From NCBI GenBank assembly GCA_963713945.1, contig OY970215.1, positions 273,916 to 337,915 on the forward strand: a stretch of 64,000 bases of DNA, in the 5' to 3' direction. This document shows positions 3,119-27,318 of this stretch, in pieces. The stretch's first letter is position 1, and every line of letters begins with the position of its first letter. This stretch comes from an uncultured Actinomycetota bacterium. Lineage in GTDB: Bacteria; Actinomycetota; Actinomycetes; Actinomycetales; Microbacteriaceae. The translations under genes were made by a program, and so were the position numbers. The notes below the pieces were generated by a model. The model worked only from the letters and a program-made list of their open reading frames with translations. It searched no databases and was not told where the DNA came from.

Positions 3119-4039
3119 ATGTCGTTCCGACTCGCCGATCACTGGGTGTGGGATAGCTGGATGGCTGACGATGGGGAGAACTATCACCTGTTCTTCCTCC
3201 GGGCCAGCAGGGCACTGATCGATCCACACCGACGCCACTTCCGGGCCTCGATCGGCCATGCTGTCTCATCCGACCTGCTCACATGGGAACTGCTCCCTGA
3301 CGCGCTGGTGGCTGGAGAGGAATCAGCGTGGGATGGCCAGGCAACCTGGACCGGATGCACCGTCCAGGCCCCCGACGGGACCTGGTACCTCTTCTACACC
3401 GGCATCAGCAGGGCAGAGGCCGGACTGAAACAGCGCATCGGGTGGGCCACATCTACCGACCTGATCTCCTGGCAGCGGTCTGAGGCGCCTCCGCTCGAAG
3501 CAGACCCACGATGGTACGAGAAACTCGGCGAGGGCACCTGGCCGGACGAGGCGTGGCGGGACCCGTTCGTCTTTCGCGATGCCGAATCGGACGACTGGCA
3601 CATGCTCATTACCGCCCGAGCATCCACCGGCGATCCTGCCGGGCGCGCTGTTGTCGGTCACGCCACCAGCCCCGACCTCAAGACCTGGACGGTCCAGCCT
3701 CCACTAACGGAGCCCTCCGGATTCGGAGAGATGGAAGTCTTCCAGTCGAGGGTCGTCGATGGAAAGAACATTCTCGTCTTCTCCTGCCTCCCCGAACATG
3801 CCGACCACCAAGTCACCTCCGGTCAGGCGACGGGGTCGTGGATCGCGTACGGTGAGAGCTCGCTCGGCCCTTGGGACGTGCACCAGGCACAGAGCTTCTT
3901 CCTCCCGGGACTGTATGCCACGCAGGTCTTCCGCAAACGGGACGGCGAGTGGGTTGTCTTCGGCTTTATCAACGATGTCGAGGGACAATTCGGGGGCGCG
4001 ATCTCCCAACCCGTGCCGCTCAGCGACTTCCTGGCATAG
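3119..4039 (+). CDS. Clan GH-J (GH32/GH68-like) glycoside hydrolase, beta-fructosidase-like
   Basis: 306 aa with WVWDSW near the N-terminus, WRDPFVF (RDP motif) and EMEVF. Its size fits a single five-bladed propeller. The start is 2 nt after the permease stop. Confidence 0.7.
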   Translation: MSFRLADHWVWDSWMADDGENYHLFFLRASRALIDPHRRHFRASIGHAVSSDLLTWELLPDALVAGEESAWDGQATWTGCTVQAPDGTWYLFYTGISRAEAGLKQRIGWATSTDLISWQRSEAPPLEADPRWYEKLGEGTWPDEAWRDPFVFRDAESDDWHMLITARASTGDPAGRAVVGHATSPDLKTWTVQPPLTEPSGFGEMEVFQSRVVDGKNILVFSCLPEHADHQVTSGQATGSWIAYGESSLGPWDVHQAQSFFLPGLYATQVFRKRDGEWVVFGFINDVEGQFGGAISQPVPLSDFLA

Positions 4040-4054
4040 CATCTCGTCGCTTGC

Positions 4055-4078
4055 GACTATACCCCCGGGGGTATAGTC
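4055..4078. promoter_or_regulatory. Perfect 24-bp palindrome GACTATACCCCCGGGGGTATAGTC; candidate CsoR/CstR-family operator
   Basis: Read directly from the sequence. It ends 8 nt before the thioredoxin start (4086). It shares the TACCCCCGGGGGTA core with the site at 8529..8542. A C/G tract flanked by AT-rich inverted arms is the general form of CsoR-family operators. Confidence 0.65.
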
Positions 4079-4085
4079 TGGAGCC

Positions 4086-4478
4086 ATGCCAATCATCGAT
4101 CTCACAGAGCAGAGCCTCCCCGAAGTCGTCTCGACCCACGGAATCGTCCTCGTGGACTTCTGGGCCGAGTGGTGCGGCCCCTGCCGCATGTTCGCGCCCG
4201 TCTACGCCGCCGCCGCCGAGAACCACCCCGACATCACGTTCGGCAAGGTCGACACCGAAGCCGAGCAGCAGCTCGCCGCTGCCGCCCAGATCTCGTCAAT
4301 CCCTACCCTGATGGCGTTCCGCGATGGCATTCTGGTGTTCTCACAGCCGGGCGCAGTACCCGCACCAGCTTTGGAGGAGATCATCGCCGCGGTCCGCGCG
4401 CTCGATATGGACGCATTCCGGGCCCGTGTGGCCGACCACGACCACGACCACGACAACGCCTCCGCGCACGCCGAGTAG
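4086..4478 (+). CDS. Thioredoxin with His/Asp-rich C-terminal tail
   Basis: 130 aa with WCGPC active site (FWAEWCGPCRMF). The C-terminus is DHDHDHDNASAHAE. Confidence 0.9.
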   Translation: MPIIDLTEQSLPEVVSTHGIVLVDFWAEWCGPCRMFAPVYAAAAENHPDITFGKVDTEAEQQLAAAAQISSIPTLMAFRDGILVFSQPGAVPAPALEEIIAAVRALDMDAFRARVADHDHDHDNASAHAE

Positions 4479-20490: not shown

Positions 20491-21123
20491 ATGCGAGTGC
20501 ACGTAGCGGACCACCCCCTGATCACCCACAAACTCACGGTGTTGCGGGATCGGACGACCCCGTCTCCGGTGTTCCGGGCGCTGACGGAAGAGTTGGTGAC
20601 GCTGCTCGCCTACGAGGCCACCCGCAATGTGCGCACCGAGAGCGTCGAGATCGAGACCCCGGTCACCACGACAACGGGCCTGGCGATCAGCCAGCCTCGA
20701 CCGCTTGTGGTGCCGATCCTCCGTGCAGGACTCGGGATGCTCGAGGGCATGGTCAAGCTGCTTCCGACCGCCGAGGTCGGCTTCCTGGGCATGGTTCGCA
20801 ACGAGGAGACCCTCGAACCGACCACCTACGCCGAGCGCCTGCCGGACGACCTGTCCGACCGCCAGTGCTTCGTGCTCGACCCGATGCTGGCCACGGGCGG
20901 ATCGCTCGGTGCAGCCATCGACTTCCTCTTCGACCGCGGTGCCGTCGACGTGACCGCGATCTGCCTCCTGGCCGCGCCCGAGGGCATTGCCGCACTTGAG
21001 AAGGCGACCGAGGGCCGCGATGTGACCATCGTCCTCGGTGCGCTCGACGAACGACTCGACGAGAACGGCTACATCGTGCCGGGTCTCGGCGATGCGGGCG
21101 ACCGCCTGTACGGGCTCGTCTAG
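20491..21123 (+). CDS. upp: Uracil phosphoribosyltransferase
   Basis: 210 aa with PRPP-binding motif [13 protein letters not shown] and C-terminal [15 protein letters not shown]. Confidence 0.95.
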
Positions 21124-21160
21124 CCTCTGCTCCCGCCGGCGCGCGCTCTTGACCCCGCGC

Positions 21161-22135
21161 CGCTCGGACAGAAACGGTTGCTCCACGGGCCAATCTCCAG
21201 CCGTTTGTGGCCAAGCGACGAGCACAACAGCCGTTTGTGGCCGAGCAATGTGCGCCCGGGCGATAGCGGGCCAGTGACACGTGCACGCCAGACGTTTCGA
21301 GCGCGATGACGCGGAAGCATCCGCCCACGAACGCTCCTCGGACAGAAATGGCTGCTCCACGGGCCAAACTCCAGCCATTCGTGACCGAGCAGTGTGCGCA
21401 ACAGCGCCCAGCCATCTGCGGCCACGTGGCTGGTGCACGCCAGACTTTTCGAGCGCGATGACGCGGAGGCATTTGCCCACGAACGCTCCTCGGACAGAAA
21501 TGGCTGCTCCACGAGCCAAACTCCAGCCATTCGTGACCGAGCAGTGAGCGCAACAGCCATTTGTGACCGAGCAGCGCGCGGCGAGCCGTACGCGGCAAAG
21601 CGCACCAGGCGATAGCTGGCCAAGTAACTGGTGCACGCCGGACATTTCGAGCGCGATGACGCCGAAGCATCCGCCCACGACCGCTCCTCGGACAGAAACG
21701 GCTGCTCCACGCGCCAAACTCCAGCCATTTGTGACCGAGCAGTGTGCGCAACAGCGCCCAGCCATCTGCGGCCACGTGGCTGGTGCTCGCCAGACTTTTA
21801 GAGCGCGATGACGCGGAAGCATCCGCCCACGAACGCTCCTCAGACAGAAACGGCTGCTCCACGAGACAAACTCCAGCCATTCGTGACCGAGCAGTGAGCG
21901 CAACAGCCATTCGTGACCGAGCAGTGAGCGCAACAGCCAAATGTGGCCGAGCAATGTGCGCCCGGGCGTTGGCGGGCCAAGCGACAGGTGCACGCCAGAC
22001 ATTTCGAGCGCGATGAGGACGCGGCGGCATCCGCTCACGAACGCTCCTCGGACAGAAATGGCTGCTCCACGAGCCAAACTCCAGCCATTTGTGACCGAGC
22101 AGCGCGCGCAACAGCCGTTTGTGACCGAGCGACGC
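21161..22135. repeat. Nested tandem-repeat array (six ~60-nt cores; at least eleven copies of a 21-nt motif)
   Basis: Cores GACAGAAA(T/C)GGCTGCTCCACG(A/G)GCCAAACTCCAGCCATT(C/T)GTGACCGAGCAG start at 21167, 21341, 21493, 21691, 21843 and 22051. Motif CAGCC(A/G)TT(C/T)GTG(A/G)CCGAGCA starts at 21198, 21228, 21372, 21524, 21554, 21722, 21874, 21904, 21934, 22082 and 22112. Unit lengths are not multiples of 3. Confidence 0.9.
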
Positions 22136-22635
22136 CCGCACGCGGCACCCTCGACGCGCCCCTACCACCGCGATCTTCCGCGATGCAGGCTCTGCGACAG
22201 AACGACCACGCCGACAGACACCTCGCAGATCTTGTGCGATAAACGCCACGCACACGAAGAATCTTCTGAATCTGACGGATATTCGTCACGCGGTGCAAAG
22301 ATTTGACACACGGCGACACCGTGCTGTTGACTCATCCACATGACTGATAACGCACATCCCCTGAGCTCCCCCGAGCCTCGTGGAACTGCGGGCATGATGA
22401 TGGCCCGTAGCGCAGTCGTGTGTTGTCGAATGTGTCGCTAACCGCGTAACCCGACGCCACGCTCGCGCCGACCGATCTCGTCGTCGCGTTGCGTCCCGGA
22501 TGCCACACCTCGCATCCGTTCCGGCCACCGCACAGGCCACATTCCGAACCGCCGTCAGATGAACGGCATCCGTCGTATCCGCTTCACGCGGCGACCGCGG
22601 TTCGACGCATCATCATCATTCAAAGGATTGCCCGC

Positions 22636-23334
22636 ATGTCTCTCGCTCACGCCACCACCTTCGCACCGTCCACCGCCGTCGCCCCGACCGCCGCGGCATC
22701 CGCCCCCCGCCTCCGCGCTGTTCCCGAAGGGACCGAGGCACGCGGGTTCGTTCTCTACGTCGGCATCGACGACGTCAAGGCCGCCGCCGCCGGAACGAAC
22801 CTCGGTGCGATCGTGCAGGCGCTCAAGGCCCTCGCAGCTGAACTCGCCCCCGAATCCGAAACGTACGCGGCTGTTGCACTCGCCCCCAAGGAGGCCGGTG
22901 GTCGCGATGTCGACGTCGTGCGCCTCGCGCTCCAGGACCCGTCGGCGCTGGCCAAGCACCGCCAGGCAGAGGAGGACGAGGACCTCGATCGGGCACATTC
23001 CGGCGTCGTGATCGACATCTCGCGCAAGCGCCTCCTGCTCGACAACGACTCGGTGGGCCTCACCTACAAGGAGTTCGAACTGCTGCAGTACCTGGTTCTC
23101 CGCGAGGGACGCACCATCGAGCGTGCCGAACTGATCTCCTCGCTCTGGAAAGCCGGCGACGAGGACGAGGTTCCCAACGAACGCACCATCGACGTGCACG
23201 TGCGTCGCCTGCGCGCCAAGCTCGGCCGCTACGAAGACATCGTTCGCACCGTTCGCGGGGTCGGATACCGCTTCGACCGTCACGCCGACGTGTCGATCCG
23301 GCACTCCTCCACTCCGTCGCCCGACCTCTTCTAG
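22636..23334 (+). CDS. Orphan OmpR/PhoB-type winged-helix DNA-binding protein (no recognisable receiver domain)
   Basis: ATG 22636 is preceded by AAAGGA. The C-terminal wHTH reads LTYKEFELLQYLVLREGRTIERAELISSLW...TIDVHVRRLRAKLGRYEDIVRTVRGVGYRF. The Ala-rich N-terminal ~120 aa lacks obvious phospho-acceptor motifs. Confidence 0.75.
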   Translation: MSLAHATTFAPSTAVAPTAAASAPRLRAVPEGTEARGFVLYVGIDDVKAAAAGTNLGAIVQALKALAAELAPESETYAAVALAPKEAGGRDVDVVRLALQDPSALAKHRQAEEDEDLDRAHSGVVIDISRKRLLLDNDSVGLTYKEFELLQYLVLREGRTIERAELISSLWKAGDEDEVPNERTIDVHVRRLRAKLGRYEDIVRTVRGVGYRFDRHADVSIRHSSTPSPDLF

Positions 23335-24613: not shown

Positions 24614-27185
24614 CTACCGCGTCGAAGCGCGCGAGTACTCGGCGATCCGTTCGGCCAGGTACGGTGCCGTTCGACTGTCCGGATGCTCCGCGACGTCTGC
24701 AGGGACGCCAGCGACGACGACGCGCCCGCCTTCATTGCCCCCGGATGGACCCATGTCGATGACCCAGTCTGCGCCGGCGACGACATCCATGTCGTGCTCG
24801 ACGAGAACGACGGTATTGCCGGTATCAACAAGTCGATTGAGCTGCGTCATCAGGAGCTGAACGTCGGCGGGGTGCAGGCCCGTGGTCGGCTCATCGAGGA
24901 GGTACAGCGTGTGACCGCGACGTGCACGCTGCAGCTCGGTGGCGAGCTTGATGCGCTGGGCCTCGCCGCCGGACAGTTCCGTCGCGGGCTGGCCGAGCCG
25001 CAGGTATCCGAGGCCGACCTCCTTGAGCGTCTCCAGGCTGCGGGATGCCGCCGGCACTTCCGCGAGGAACACGGATGCGTCGTCGACGGTCATCCGCAGC
25101 ACGTCGGCGACGTTGGTGTCGCGGTAGAGGATCTCGAGCGTCTCGGCGTTGTACCGGGATCCGCCACAGGTGGGGCAGGGCGCATAGCTGCCGGGCAGGA
25201 ACAGGAGTTCCACCTCGACGAAACCCTCACCGAGGCACGTGTCGCAGCGACCACCGACGACGTTGAACGAGAACCGGCCGGCGTCGTAGCCGCGCGCGAC
25301 GGCATCCGGTGTCGCCGCGAACGTCGCCCGGACGGCATCGAACAGGCCGGTGTACGTCGCCAGGTTCGACCGTGGCGTGCGACCGATGGGGCGCTGGTCG
25401 ACGCGCACCAGCCGGTCGACAGCCTCGAGTCCGGTCACATCATCGATCGCGGTCGCCTCGGTCGGGTCGACGAGGTCGCCATCCGGGAGGTCGCCAGTCG
25501 GCTCGGCGAGCGGCACCTGATGTCCGCGCGCACGGTGCAGACCCTCGTGGACCGCATCCGCCAGCACACGACTGACCAGCGTCGACTTGCCCGAGCCGGA
25601 CACCCCGGTCACGGCGGTGAGCACGCCGAGCGGGATCTTCACGTCGAGATCGATGAGGTTGTGCCGGGTAATGCCGTGTAGTCCGAGCCAGCCTGAGGGG
25701 GTGCGGAGGGTCGGCTGCTCGGGAATCGCGGCTGCGTCCCGGAACAGGAACGGCCGGGTGAGCGAGGTCTCAACTTCGGCGAGCCCCGCAACCGGTCCGC
25801 TGTAGAGAACCGAACCGCCGCCAGACCCGGCACGCGGACCCACATCCACGAGCCAGTCGGCATGCCGGACGACGTCCATGTTGTGCTCGACGACGAAGAC
25901 GGAGTTGCCGGCGGCCACGAGCTGTTCGAGCACGATGATCAGCGGCTCGGCGTCGGCCGGGTGCAGGCCCGCCGACGGCTCGTCGAGCACGTAGACGACG
26001 CCGAAGAGGCCCGAGCGCAGCTGGGTGGCGATGCGCAGCCGTTGCATCTCGCCCGGCGACAGTGTCGGCGTCTTGCGCCCCAGGCTCAGGTAGCCGAGGC
26101 CGAGGCTGCTGAGCACCTCGATCCGCTCGAGCAGGTCGGTCGTGATGGTGACGGCAACTTCGGTCACCTCCCCTGATGACGCGGATGCGACGGCTGCGGT
26201 CGCTGCGTCCAGCTGGGTGGTCGGCCGGATGACCTCGGCGAGCTCGGAGAGCGGCAGGGCGTTGAGCTCCGCGATGGTGTGTCCGGCAAAGGTGACCGCG
26301 AGCGCGGCCCGGGTGAGACCGCTGCCACCGCAGAGGTCGCACGGACCTGTGTCGACGAATCGCAGCGCACGCGCTGCGGGCGGTCTCGCTCTTCGAATCG
26401 GCGAGGGTGTGCATGACGTAGCTTTTCGCGCTCCAGAAACGACCCTTGTATGGCTTCGCGACCCGGTCCCGCTGCGGCGTCACTTCGACGACGGGCTGTT
26501 CCTCCGTGAACAGCAGCCAGTCCCGGTCGGCACGAGGCAGGTCCCGCCACGGAATCTCGATGTTGTATCCGAGCTCAGACACGACATCCCGCAGATTCTT
26601 CCCCTGCCAGGCGCCGGGCCACGCGGTGATCGCCCCGTCCCGGATGCTGAGGGTCGGGTCGAGGACCGCCGACGCCTCCGTCACCGTATGGGCGATTCCG
26701 AGTCCGTGGCAGCGCGGACATGCGCCGGCTGCGGTGTTGGGCGAGAAGGAGTCGGACTCTAGCCGCGGCGCATCGGCCGGGTAGCTGCCCGCCCGCGAGT
26801 AGAGCATGCGGGTCGAGTTCGACAGGGTCGTGAGGGTTCCCACAGTGGAGCGGGAACTCGCGGCGCCGCGGCGCTGCTGCAGTGCGACCGCGGGAGGCAG
26901 GCCCGTGATCTCGTCGACGTGGGGCGTGTGTCCCTGGGCGATCAGGCGCCGGGCGTACGGCGCAACGGACTCCAGGAACCGCCTCTGGGCTTCGGCGAAG
27001 ATCGTGCCGAACGCGAGCGAGGACTTACCCGAGCCGGATACCCCGGTGAAGGCGACGATGCTCCCGCGGGGAACATCGACGTCGACATCGCGGAGGTTGT
27101 TTTCGCGGGCGCCACGGACGCGGACGAAACCGGCGTCGTGGGCATCCGGGGTGGCGGGGCTGGGGTGTTGCTGGAGGGTCGACAC
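24614..27185 (-). pseudogene. UvrA-like excinuclease ATPase paralogue (class II size), frameshifted
   Basis: The N-part is ORF 25770..27227 (Walker A GVSGSGKSSLAF). The C-part frame (ORF 24614..26167) stays open upstream and reads ...ALRFVDTGPCDLCGGSGL... It carries a second Walker A (GVSGSGKSTLV), LSGGEAQRIKLA and CxxC fingers. The frame switch is near 26365-26378. Confidence 0.8.
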
Positions 27186-27318
27186 CGTCTCCACCCTAGG
27201 CGGGGAGCGGATGCGGACGGGGGCCATTGACAGCGGCTGCTGAGCGCTGGCCGCATCTGAGCTCCGCCGTGATCAGCACCACAGCAATCGCGATGAGCTC
27301 TTCAGCCCTGCTCTTCCC

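What the first reader, a model, noticed from the sequence alone, without database searches (positions are those of the whole stretch)
21161..22135. Nested ~1-kb tandem-repeat array in the non-coding gap between upp and an orphan wHTH gene
The 1.5-kb gap after upp has no credible coding potential but is highly structured.
- Six copies of a ~60-nt core start at 21167, 21341, 21493, 21691, 21843 and 22051. The spacings are 174/152/198/152/208 nt, so short and long units alternate and form a ~350-360-bp higher-order repeat.
- A 21-nt motif CAGCC(A/G)TT(C/T)GTG(A/G)CCGAGCA recurs at least 11 times. In the long units it forms 2-3 tandem copies with an exact 30-bp period (21198/21228, 21524/21554, 21874/21904/21934, 22082/22112).
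- Each core can fold as AATGGCTG - 17 nt - CAGCCATT.
- Unit lengths are not multiples of three, so this is not a protein repeat. There are no unique spacers, so it is not a CRISPR array.

The nearest gene (22636..23334) encodes an OmpR/PhoB-type winged-helix protein without a receiver domain. That family binds direct repeats, so one hypothesis is a binding-site array for this protein. Alternatives are a tandem small-RNA array or local expansion of a lineage-specific dispersed repeat. I know of no described element with this architecture.
Basis: partly seen in the sequence, partly recalled or inferred. Interest (0 to 1): 0.7.

Follow-up and report, generated by a model that had tools for sequence, protein, structure and literature searches.

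The report
Tandemly expanded palindromic intergenic repeat
The 1-kb structured stretch after the upp gene is a locally amplified cluster of a hairpin-forming repeat found only in Mycetocola, comparable to the REP/BIME and BOX repeats of other bacteria, and it is probably not a docking array for the neighbouring regulator.

Summary
Positions 21131-22138 hold six hairpin modules, spaced 174/152/198/152/208 nt. There are 17 copies of a 20-nt motif, 11 direct and 6 inverted, some at an exact 30-bp period, plus a 350-bp higher-order repeat. The region has no coding signature and no Rfam match.

The interpretation needs correcting:
- **Distribution.** The module (left arm, 17-nt loop, right arm, extra right arms) occurs only in Mycetocola. 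It sits in the same upp-wHTH gap with 0, 2-3, 11, 13 or 17 motif copies depending on the genome.
- **Other sites.** It also occurs at unrelated sites, two of them between convergent genes. A diverged sub-family forms a second ~1.1-kb nested array at another locus of a relative.
- **The regulator.** The wHTH is a core Microbacteriaceae gene. Its DNA-binding region is identical or nearly so in species that lack the motif, and it has its own conserved leader.

My best reading is a genus-specific dispersed palindromic repeat, similar in architecture to REPIN clusters, BIMEs and BOX elements. It was probably amplified by slippage or unequal recombination and may act as a terminator-like hairpin block.

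It is not a proven REP/RAYT member: it has no GTAG/CGTC tag, no RAYT was found, and the copy number looks low. I rate it a new member of a known kind, of modest interest.

The parts
21131..22138 (+). Whole nested tandem array. It has six units of 152-208 nt and a 350-bp higher-order repeat.
   Evidence: TRF periods 350/152/30. D1 family of six 124-nt copies. It is the only tandem array in the 64-kb window.
21155..21223 (+). Hairpin module 1 (left arm, 17-nt loop, right arm). It is the most diverged copy.
   Evidence: Covariance model R1 scores 79.2 bits. Weight-matrix hits at 21161(-) and 21198(+).
21329..21397 (+). Hairpin module 2 (short unit).
   Evidence: R1 81.0 bits. RNA fold -29.1 kcal/mol.
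21481..21549 (+). Hairpin module 3 (long unit).
   Evidence: R1 81.3 bits. RNA fold of 21480-21580 is -37.7 (+ strand) and -52.5 (- strand) kcal/mol.
21679..21747 (+). Hairpin module 4 (short unit).
   Evidence: R1 79.1 bits.
21831..21899 (+). Hairpin module 5 (long unit).
   Evidence: R1 74.9 bits.
22039..22107 (+). Hairpin module 6.
   Evidence: R1 83.8 bits. RNA fold -39.3 kcal/mol.
21228..21247 (+). Extra right-arm copy, 30 nt after the arm of module 1.
   Evidence: Weight-matrix score 32.2 bits.
21554..21573 (+). Extra right-arm copy, 30 nt after the arm of module 3.
   Evidence: Weight-matrix score 35.0 bits.
21904..21953 (+). Two extra right-arm copies (21904 and 21934) after module 5, at a 30-bp period.
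   Evidence: TRF period 30, 2.9 copies. Weight-matrix scores 31.5 and 24.5 bits.
22112..22131 (+). Extra right-arm copy after module 6. It marks the end of the array.
   Evidence: Weight-matrix score 30.4 bits.
21409..21428 (+). Decayed right-arm copy in a short unit. A second one lies at 21759-21778.
   Evidence: 13 of 20 matches to the consensus, 4.3 bits.
20491..21123 (+). upp (uracil phosphoribosyltransferase). The array begins 8 nt after its stop codon.
   Evidence: Pfam UPRTase, E 2.7e-66.
22258..22635 (+). Conserved leader of the wHTH gene. It is not part of the repeat. It holds a TTGACA-like box, a 33-codon upstream ORF (22340-22441) and a hairpin.
   Evidence: It aligns by eye with the relatives L118, L053, L120, L142 and L143, which lack the array or have only 2-3 motif copies.
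22636..23334 (+). OmpR/PhoB-type winged-helix gene without a receiver domain. It is a neighbour of the array, not a demonstrated partner.
   Evidence: Pfam Trans_reg_C at residues 139-213 only. All NCBIfam hits fall below their cut-offs and cover the C-terminal domain only.

Best explanation
The array is a locally amplified cluster of a Mycetocola-specific dispersed palindromic repeat.

**The module.** The basic module is about 70-100 nt. It consists of a left arm, a loop of exactly 17 nt, a right arm (CAGCCRTTYGTGRCCGAGCA) and one or more further right arms at a 30-31-bp period. It forms a long imperfect hairpin.

**How the array arose.**
- Shown: one such module sits just 3' of upp in several Mycetocola genomes.
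- Inferred: it was already there in their common ancestor.
- Inferred: in some lineages it was amplified by replication slippage or unequal recombination. This happened first at the right-arm level (30 bp), then at the unit level (152-208 bp, carrying lineage-specific flanking DNA). In this window it went on to a two-unit block (350 bp).
- Shown: copy number differs between close relatives, as it does at minisatellite (VNTR) loci.

**What it does (inferred).** The array is not an operator for the wHTH. At most it acts passively as a block of strong hairpins at the 3' end of upp. In that role it would work as a terminator, an mRNA 3'-end protector or an insulator ahead of the upstream-ORF/wHTH promoter. 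It occupies the place where related genomes have an ordinary terminator.

Spread to other loci implies some mobility. The agent is unknown; it could be a RAYT-like or IS-encoded enzyme, or recombination.
For: **Restricted to Mycetocola**
- Among 114 genome blocks that match the motif, only the five Mycetocola blocks show extended homology and clustered copies.
- The covariance model R1 finds no convincing copy in 772 kb of the other blocks.
- A 354-nt stretch of the array has no match in the plasmid and phage collections, and motif-pattern scans of the viral and JGI metagenome collections found only isolated single-copy hits.

**Same site, variable copy number**

| Genome | upp-wHTH gap | Motif copies |
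|---|---|---|
| M. zhujimingii, M. spongiae, Leifsonia | 388-447 nt | 0 |
| L118 | 744 nt | 3 |
| L053, L067 | not measured | 2-3 |
| L115 (flanks 98.5% identical to the window) | not measured | 11 |
| L116 | 1210 nt | 13 |
| Window | 1513 nt | 17 |

**Unrelated sites**
- In M. miduiensis the module fills the 133-nt gap between penicillin amidase and citrate synthase, which converge.
- It also fills the gap next to a LacI-family gene.
- A Mycetocola metagenome-assembled genome has a mini-array upstream of an MFS transporter gene, at a contig end.
- The amidase/citrate-synthase gap lacks the element in four close relatives. In M. zhujimingii that gap holds a canonical terminator.

**A second sub-family**
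- A diverged sub-family has the same layout, with right arm CGCCCTTTGGGCCCGATCGA, a 30-bp period and a 192-nt unit in 4.5 copies.
- It forms a ~1.1-kb array at another convergent gap, in the same 3.47-Mb contig that holds the L116 array.
- A relative with an identical citrate synthase has a single hairpin there.

**Independent amplification.** Only the hairpin module is shared between lineages. The inter-hairpin segments are lineage-specific.

**The palindrome is maintained.** The loop is 17 nt in all 17 aligned modules. In register, 67% of cells pair, against 24-41% when the register is slid. Pair 16-54 reads AU in 10 modules, GC in 6 and GU in 1, with none unpaired.

**Non-coding, and not a known RNA**.

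Against: - **Copy number looks low for a REP-type family.** Apart from the arrays, I found no further copy in about 145 kb of unselected sequence from motif-bearing genomes.
- **No sign of a transposase or a clean insertion.** tblastn with E. coli RayT found nothing in 269 kb. I saw no target-site duplication and no clean empty-site junction: the orthologous gaps simply do not align.
- **The REP tag is absent.** There is no GTAG or CGTC tag next to the hairpin (sequence).
- **The motif is strongly conserved.** It is conserved across species and shares a core, GCCnTTTGnGnCCGAnC, with the second sub-family (my manual comparison of the two consensus arms, 13 of 19 positions). One mismatch position is unpaired in all 17 modules. 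This suggests recognition by a specific protein, so 'passive hairpin' may understate its function.
- **The terminator role is only inferred.** No U-tract follows the hairpin, and I had no expression data.
Confidence: 0.7

Rival explanations
1. Protein-recognised element. The 20-nt arm would be the specific binding or cleavage site of a dedicated protein that is not the neighbouring wHTH. Candidates are a RAYT-like HUH transposase, a nucleoid-associated protein or a partition-type protein. The arrays would then be functional multi-site platforms or true REPIN clusters.
For: - The arm sequence is far better conserved between species than the adjacent spacers.
- The two sub-families share the core GCCnTTTGnGnCCGAnC and the same 17-nt loop and 30-bp period (the shared core is my manual comparison of the two consensus arms).
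- One mid-stem mismatch is kept in all 17 modules even though the bases change.
- A period of 30-31 bp places the copies on roughly one face of the helix (inference).
Against: - No candidate protein was identified, and there is no RayT homolog in 269 kb.
- There is no GTAG/CGTC tag.
- Recent duplication and gene conversion can also keep the arms alike.
- The covariation statistics do not exceed the shuffles.
Confidence: 0.13
2. Operator or decoy array for the adjacent OmpR/PhoB-type wHTH. The tandem right arms would titrate or recruit the regulator encoded 500 nt downstream.
For: - The motif and the gene are neighbours in at least six Mycetocola genomes.
- OmpR-family proteins bind direct repeats (established knowledge).
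Against: - Adjacency is explained by orthology of a single insertion.
- The wHTH recognition helix and wing are identical in M. zhujimingii, and differ by one conservative residue each in M. spongiae and Leifsonia. Their syntenic gaps have no motif.
- The motif occurs at other loci with no wHTH nearby.
- The conserved 370-nt leader next to the gene has no motif copy.
- The inverted-arm geometry and 30-bp period are unlike the 10-11-bp direct repeats typical of the family.
Confidence: 0.05
3. Array of structured RNAs, either tandem small RNAs or a cis-acting 3'-UTR element of upp, with a sequence-specific RNA function.
For: - The hairpins are stable on both strands, with z-scores of -2 to -5.
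- A few pairs show changes on both sides.
- The array starts 8 nt after the upp stop codon, so read-through transcription is likely (inference).
Against: - There is no Rfam match even at E<=5.
- No promoter-like site was found in the region.
- The element occurs in both orientations relative to flanking genes.
- Copy number is unconstrained, from 0 to 17.
- A perfect DNA palindrome gives the same pairing signal without any RNA function.
Confidence: 0.08
4. Assembly artefact: a single unit or a few units inflated or mis-joined by the assembler.
For: - A Logan contig of a relative breaks inside the array (L117), and L040 ends in one.
- The window carries single-base indels relative to a 98% relative.
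Against: - Units differ from one another by 5-30%, so they are not collapsed or duplicated reads.
- Independent assemblies show arrays at the same site, including one inside a 3.47-Mb contig.
- A second array of the same type exists elsewhere.
Confidence: 0.03

Closest known systems
REPIN clusters, REP tandem arrays and BIMEs (Pseudomonas, E. coli). See PMC3116915 and PMC2817692.
   Same: - A short conserved sequence occurs as an inverted doublet that forms a hairpin.
- Location is extragenic.
- Clusters are tandem repeats of the doublet together with flanking DNA.
- Alternating spacings give a higher-order period.
- Several sequence sub-families share one layout.
   Different: - No GTAG/CGTC tag and no RAYT found.
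- Each arm is not itself a small palindrome.
- Extra copies of one arm only, at a strict 30-bp period.
- Apparently low copy number.
- The host is an actinobacterium. Neither of the two REP/RAYT surveys I text-searched (PMC3733652, PMC5581495) mentions Actinobacteria.
BOX elements of Streptococcus pneumoniae (boxA, boxB in n copies, boxC). See PMC3049150.
   Same: - A modular dispersed repeat whose outer parts pair into a stem.
- One inner or lateral module is tandemly repeated a variable number of times.
- Length varies between strains, and larger elements vary more.
   Different: - Similarity to BOX sequences was not tested and is not expected in a 65% GC actinobacterium.
- Here the repeated module is a copy of the stem arm itself.
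- Whole elements are further amplified into arrays of about 1 kb.
SPRITE (terminator-like dispersed repeat of S. pneumoniae). See PMC3049150.
   Same: A dispersed hairpin element enriched at the 3' ends of convergent genes, where a terminator would normally sit.
   Different: The hairpin here has no U-rich tail, and its stem is much longer and imperfect. Terminator activity has not been tested.
MIRU-VNTR minisatellites of mycobacteria. See PMC3635867.
   Same: Actinobacterial intergenic tandem repeats at several loci, with copy-number differences between close strains.
   Different: MIRUs are simple 40-100-bp direct repeats (my own knowledge). They have neither the long palindrome nor the nested 30/152-208/350-bp hierarchy. 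Sequence similarity was not tested.

Membership tests
REP / REPIN (RAYT-mobilised) | Two conserved ~20-nt sequences in inverted orientation with a short spacer, able to form a hairpin | tested here: met
   Arms of 20-23 nt and a 17-nt loop in all 17 modules. Folds of -29 to -54 kcal/mol.
REP / REPIN (RAYT-mobilised) | Extragenic and dispersed over many unrelated loci at high copy number (usually more than 100 per genome) | tested here: inconclusive
   The element is dispersed, at four or more distinct loci within the genus. No further copy was seen in about 145 kb of unselected sequence.
REP / REPIN (RAYT-mobilised) | GTAG or CGTC tetranucleotide at one foot of the hairpin (PMC3733652) | tested here: not met
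   The hairpin feet read ...GAACGCTCCTCGG / CCGAGCAGTG.... Neither tag is present in any module.
REP / REPIN (RAYT-mobilised) | A cognate RAYT (Y1 HUH transposase) gene in the genome, usually flanked by the repeats | not testable with these tools
   tblastn with E. coli RayT gave no hit below E 0.49 in the window plus 205 kb of Mycetocola loci. That is under 10% of a genome.
REP / REPIN (RAYT-mobilised) | Clusters formed as tandem repeats of the doublet plus flanking DNA | tested here: met
   Six units of 152-208 nt that include 90-nt lineage-specific flanks.
MITE | Terminal inverted repeats plus a target-site duplication, and a clean empty site in relatives | tested here: inconclusive
   Inverted arms are present. 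Orthologous gaps with and without the element do not align, and no duplication was seen.
OmpR/PhoB-family operator of the adjacent wHTH | The motif co-occurs with the regulator and lies in or near regulated promoters as direct repeats with a period of about 10-11 bp | tested here: not met
   The regulator is present and its DNA-binding region is identical or differs by one conservative residue in three genomes without the motif. The motif occurs between convergent genes. The period is 30 bp, with an inverted copy.
CRISPR array | Identical repeats separated by unique spacers of similar length, with cas genes | tested here: not met
   The 'spacers' are themselves repeated, as part of the 152/350-nt units. 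No cas gene lies among the neighbours.
Any Rfam RNA family | A match at or above the gathering score | tested here: not met
   No hit at gathering thresholds in the whole window. The only hit in 21000-22700 was 11.5 bits at E 3.8.
VNTR / minisatellite behaviour | Copy number differs between closely related genomes at the same locus | tested here: met
   17 against 11 motif copies when flanks are 98.5% identical. 5 against 1 hairpin units between L137 and L136, which have identical citrate synthase.

The most novel reading that the evidence does not exclude
The element would be the DNA half of a previously undescribed actinobacterial repeat-plus-enzyme system. The arm core GCCnTTTGnGnCCGAnC is conserved. 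It is held in an imperfect hairpin with a fixed 17-nt loop and followed by direct copies of one arm every 30 bp. A dedicated protein, such as a RAYT-like HUH enzyme or a rolling-circle-type Rep, would recognise it. The one-sided arm reiteration would be the footprint of that protein's copying mechanism rather than of random slippage.
Probability: 0.12. Interest if true: 0.55.

Novelty: new member of a known kind. Interest (0 to 1): 0.3.

Why it matters
- **Annotation.** Gene callers place spurious ORFs of 200-300 codons on these arrays in relatives (L115 6678-7559, L116 8855-9673, L137 3328-3921). The arrays also break short-read assemblies (L117, L040).
- **Strain typing.** The repeats offer a ready strain-typing (VNTR) marker for Mycetocola.
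- **Biology.** They extend REPIN/BIME-like higher-order repeat clusters to a high-GC Gram-positive genus. They also show an unusual one-sided reiteration of a hairpin arm at a fixed 30-bp period in two diverged sub-families, which hints at a specific generating or recognising activity.
- **The regulator.** The finding does not reveal a new regulatory mechanism for the neighbouring wHTH.

Tried and rejected
**Searches that gave little or nothing**
Nearly all hits were single chance matches in unrelated phyla, so it cannot be used to count copies per genome.
- The JGI metagenome scan with a doublet pattern gave three single-copy chance hits. The viral scan gave 12 single copies and no arrays.
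- An exact look-up of the window's wHTH protein found nothing, so I used upp instead.
- blastn of a 354-nt stretch (21457-21810) found no match in plasmids or phages.
- Rfam found nothing at gathering or E-value thresholds.
- The sigma-70 promoter scan found no sites. The terminator-like hits are only sub-hairpins on the minus strand.
- tblastn with RayT was negative but covers too little genome to count.

**Tests that were uninformative**
- The empty-site and target-duplication test at the citrate-synthase gap failed because the gaps do not align.
- The covariation statistics on the hairpin do not exceed the shuffles, because most modules are recent duplicates.

**Ideas considered and rejected**
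- A coding repeat: flat GC phase and no Pfam match.
- CRISPR.
- A PyrR-binding attenuator: only a UCCAG pentamer is shared, and there is no Rfam PyrR hit.
- A Streptomyces TraB clt-like site: a GGCCCGGA resemblance occurs only in the spacers of the second sub-family.
- Integron attC sites: there are no cassettes.

Full report
**1. What is in the window**

The sequence is about 65% GC, and its genes match Mycetocola (Microbacteriaceae). The wHTH protein is 94% identical to the best database hits, and named hits of 80-90% are Mycetocola species.

upp (20491-21123; Pfam UPRTase) is followed 8 nt later by a repeat array at 21131-22138.
- Tandem Repeats Finder reports periods of 350 (2.4 copies, 88%), 152 and 30 nt.
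- The repeat finder gives six 124-nt copies spaced 174/152/198/152/208 nt.
- The 20-nt motif has 15 hits at up to 3 mismatches, against 0.05 expected.
- A weight matrix finds 17 copies, 11 direct and 6 inverted. It finds none elsewhere in the 64 kb.
- This is the only tandem array in the window.

Each unit holds a long imperfect palindrome. The left arm (CTCGGACAGAAATGGCTG) is followed by 17 nt and then the right arm (CAGCCATTYGTGACCGAG). The arms extend to 23 nt at 87% complementarity. RNA folds range from -29 to -52 kcal/mol.

Long units add one or two more right arms at exactly 30 bp. Short units keep a decayed second copy.

The array shows no codon-phase GC signal: 0.62/0.66/0.66, against 0.72/0.45/0.86 in upp. 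The open minus-strand frames have no Pfam match. There is no Rfam hit.

**2. Where else the element occurs**

A scan of one genome per species returned 114 blocks. Only the five Mycetocola blocks share more than the bare motif. The covariance model built from 17 modules (R1) finds nothing convincing in 772 kb of the other blocks. A 354-nt stretch of the array has no match in plasmids or phages, and motif-pattern scans of the viral and JGI metagenome collections found only isolated single-copy hits.

**3. The same locus in relatives**

upp-wHTH synteny holds from Mycetocola to Leifsonia.

| Genome | Gap (nt) | Motif copies |
|---|---|---|
| M. spongiae | 388 | 0 |
| Leifsonia | 395 | 0 |
| M. 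zhujimingii | 447 | 0 |
| L118/L119 | 744 | 3 |
| L053, L067 | not measured | 2-3 |
| L115 (flanks 98.5% identical) | not measured | 11 |
| L116 (inside a 3.47-Mb contig) | 1210 | 13 |
| Window | 1513 | 17 |

Only the hairpin module is alignable between lineages. The ~90-nt inter-hairpin segments differ. This points to independent amplification of an ancestral single module.

The ~370 nt next to the wHTH gene are conserved in all these genomes and carry no motif.

**4. Other loci**

- In M. miduiensis the module fills the 133-nt gap between penicillin amidase and citrate synthase, which converge. It also fills the gap next to a LacI-family gene.
- A Mycetocola metagenome-assembled genome has a mini-array upstream of an MFS transporter gene, at a contig end.
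- The amidase/citrate-synthase gap lacks the element in four close relatives. M. zhujimingii has a canonical bidirectional terminator there. Mycetocola sp. 2940 has an unrelated 830-bp array of period 191/385.
- R1 also detected weaker copies in L137, in the same 3.47-Mb contig that holds L116. Inspection showed a second ~1.1-kb nested array at 3367-4471, between azlD and a Dyp peroxidase gene.
- That array belongs to a diverged sub-family with the same layout. It has a left arm, a loop of about 17 nt, the right arm CGCCCTTTGGGCCCGATCGA, and right arms reiterated every 30 bp. Its unit is 192 nt in 4.5 copies.
- L136, whose citrate synthase is identical, has one hairpin plus six right arms at that site.

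So the architecture recurs with a different sequence, at a different locus, and is again polymorphic.

**5. The neighbouring regulator**

The 232-aa product has only a C-terminal Trans_reg_C domain. It is 75-94% identical across Microbacteriaceae genera. Its recognition helix and wing are identical in M. zhujimingii, and differ by one conservative residue each in M. spongiae and Leifsonia; all three lack the motif. The element also occurs away from any wHTH gene and between convergent genes. For these reasons I judge the operator-array hypothesis unlikely (about 5%).

**6. Mechanism**

- Shown: this is a genus-restricted palindromic module that occurs at several loci, has at least two sub-families and expands and contracts locally.
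- Inferred: amplification was by slippage or unequal recombination at three nested levels (30 bp, 152-208 bp and 350 bp).
- Inferred: any function is passive, as a terminator-like block or a 3'-end stabiliser. The element sits where relatives have terminators, for example M. spongiae GCGGCACATCCCGGTTACGGGATGTGCCGCCTTTTTC after upp and the M. zhujimingii citrate-synthase terminator.
- Against a purely passive view: the arm sequence is much better conserved than the spacers. The two sub-families share the core GCCnTTTGnGnCCGAnC, which is my manual comparison of the two consensus arms (13 of 19 positions). One mid-stem position is mismatched in all 17 modules. A specific binding or processing protein therefore remains possible (about 13%).

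**7. Comparison with known systems**

- REPINs are inverted REP doublets that form hairpins.
- REP arrays with alternating 112/72-bp spacing and 12 copies are described (PMC3116915).
- BIMEs have regularly spaced REPs in alternating orientation (PMC2817692).
- BOX elements carry a tandemly variable inner module and vary in length between strains. SPRITE is a terminator-like repeat enriched at convergent 3' ends (PMC3049150).

The present element works like these. Membership of the RAYT-mobilised REP family is not established:
- the GTAG/CGTC tag is absent (PMC3733652; sequence);
- no RAYT was found in the little genome available;
- abundance looks low.

I found no description of this repeat in a text search for Mycetocola. 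Neither of the two REP/RAYT surveys I text-searched (PMC3733652, PMC5581495) mentions Actinobacteria.

**8. Verdict**

- This is a new member of a known kind of element.
- Interest is modest (0.3). It is raised slightly by the recurrent one-sided 30-bp arm reiteration and by the actinobacterial host.

Noticed in passing
window 22258-22635 (upstream ORF 22340-22441, hairpin 22385-22409): A 33-codon upstream ORF (MTDNAHPLSSPEPRGTAGMMMARSAVVCCRMCR*) lies about 195 nt upstream of the wHTH gene. It has an internal hairpin, CTGCGGGC-ATGATGATG-GCCCGTAG, and follows a TTGACA-like box. The peptide (MTDN...GMMMA...CCRMCR) and the hairpin, which shows compensatory changes, are conserved in M. zhujimingii, M. 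spongiae and Leifsonia. There is no Pfam, NCBIfam or Rfam match. It looks like a conserved leader peptide or small protein coupled to this core regulator.
   Followed up: partly
L137 3367-4471 and L136 4262-4470: A second nested array (~1.1 kb) of a diverged sub-family lies between azlD and a Dyp peroxidase gene in a relative. Its right arm is CGCCCTTTGGGCCCGATCGA, with a 30-bp period and a 192-nt unit in 4.5 copies. The closest relative has a single hairpin plus six right arms there. A gene caller placed a 197-aa ORF on it.
   Followed up: partly
L138 11344-12175: Mycetocola sp. 2940 has an unrelated 830-bp tandem array (period 191/385, 4.3 copies). It is built on the citrate-synthase terminator region, between citrate synthase and penicillin amidase. 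This suggests that Mycetocola genomes in general tend to amplify hairpin regions at 3' ends.
   Followed up: no
window 24244, 24324, 24589, 26376, 26895; ORFs 24614-26167 and 25770-27227 (-): The window and a 98.2%-identical contig (L115) differ by five single-base indels inside the LtrA and UvrA-like genes. In the window the UvrA-like gene is split into two overlapping frames, whereas a relative has one 850-aa gene. The LtrA ORF has an out-of-frame-looking tail. These are either pseudogenes or residual indel errors of a long-read assembly. If the latter, exact periods in the array could be off by a base.
   Followed up: partly
L063 5483-6049: In M. miduiensis the ORF upstream of the element seems to run into it. 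Its last ~20 codons and its stop codon lie within the repeat, so the insertion may have remodelled a C-terminus.
   Followed up: no
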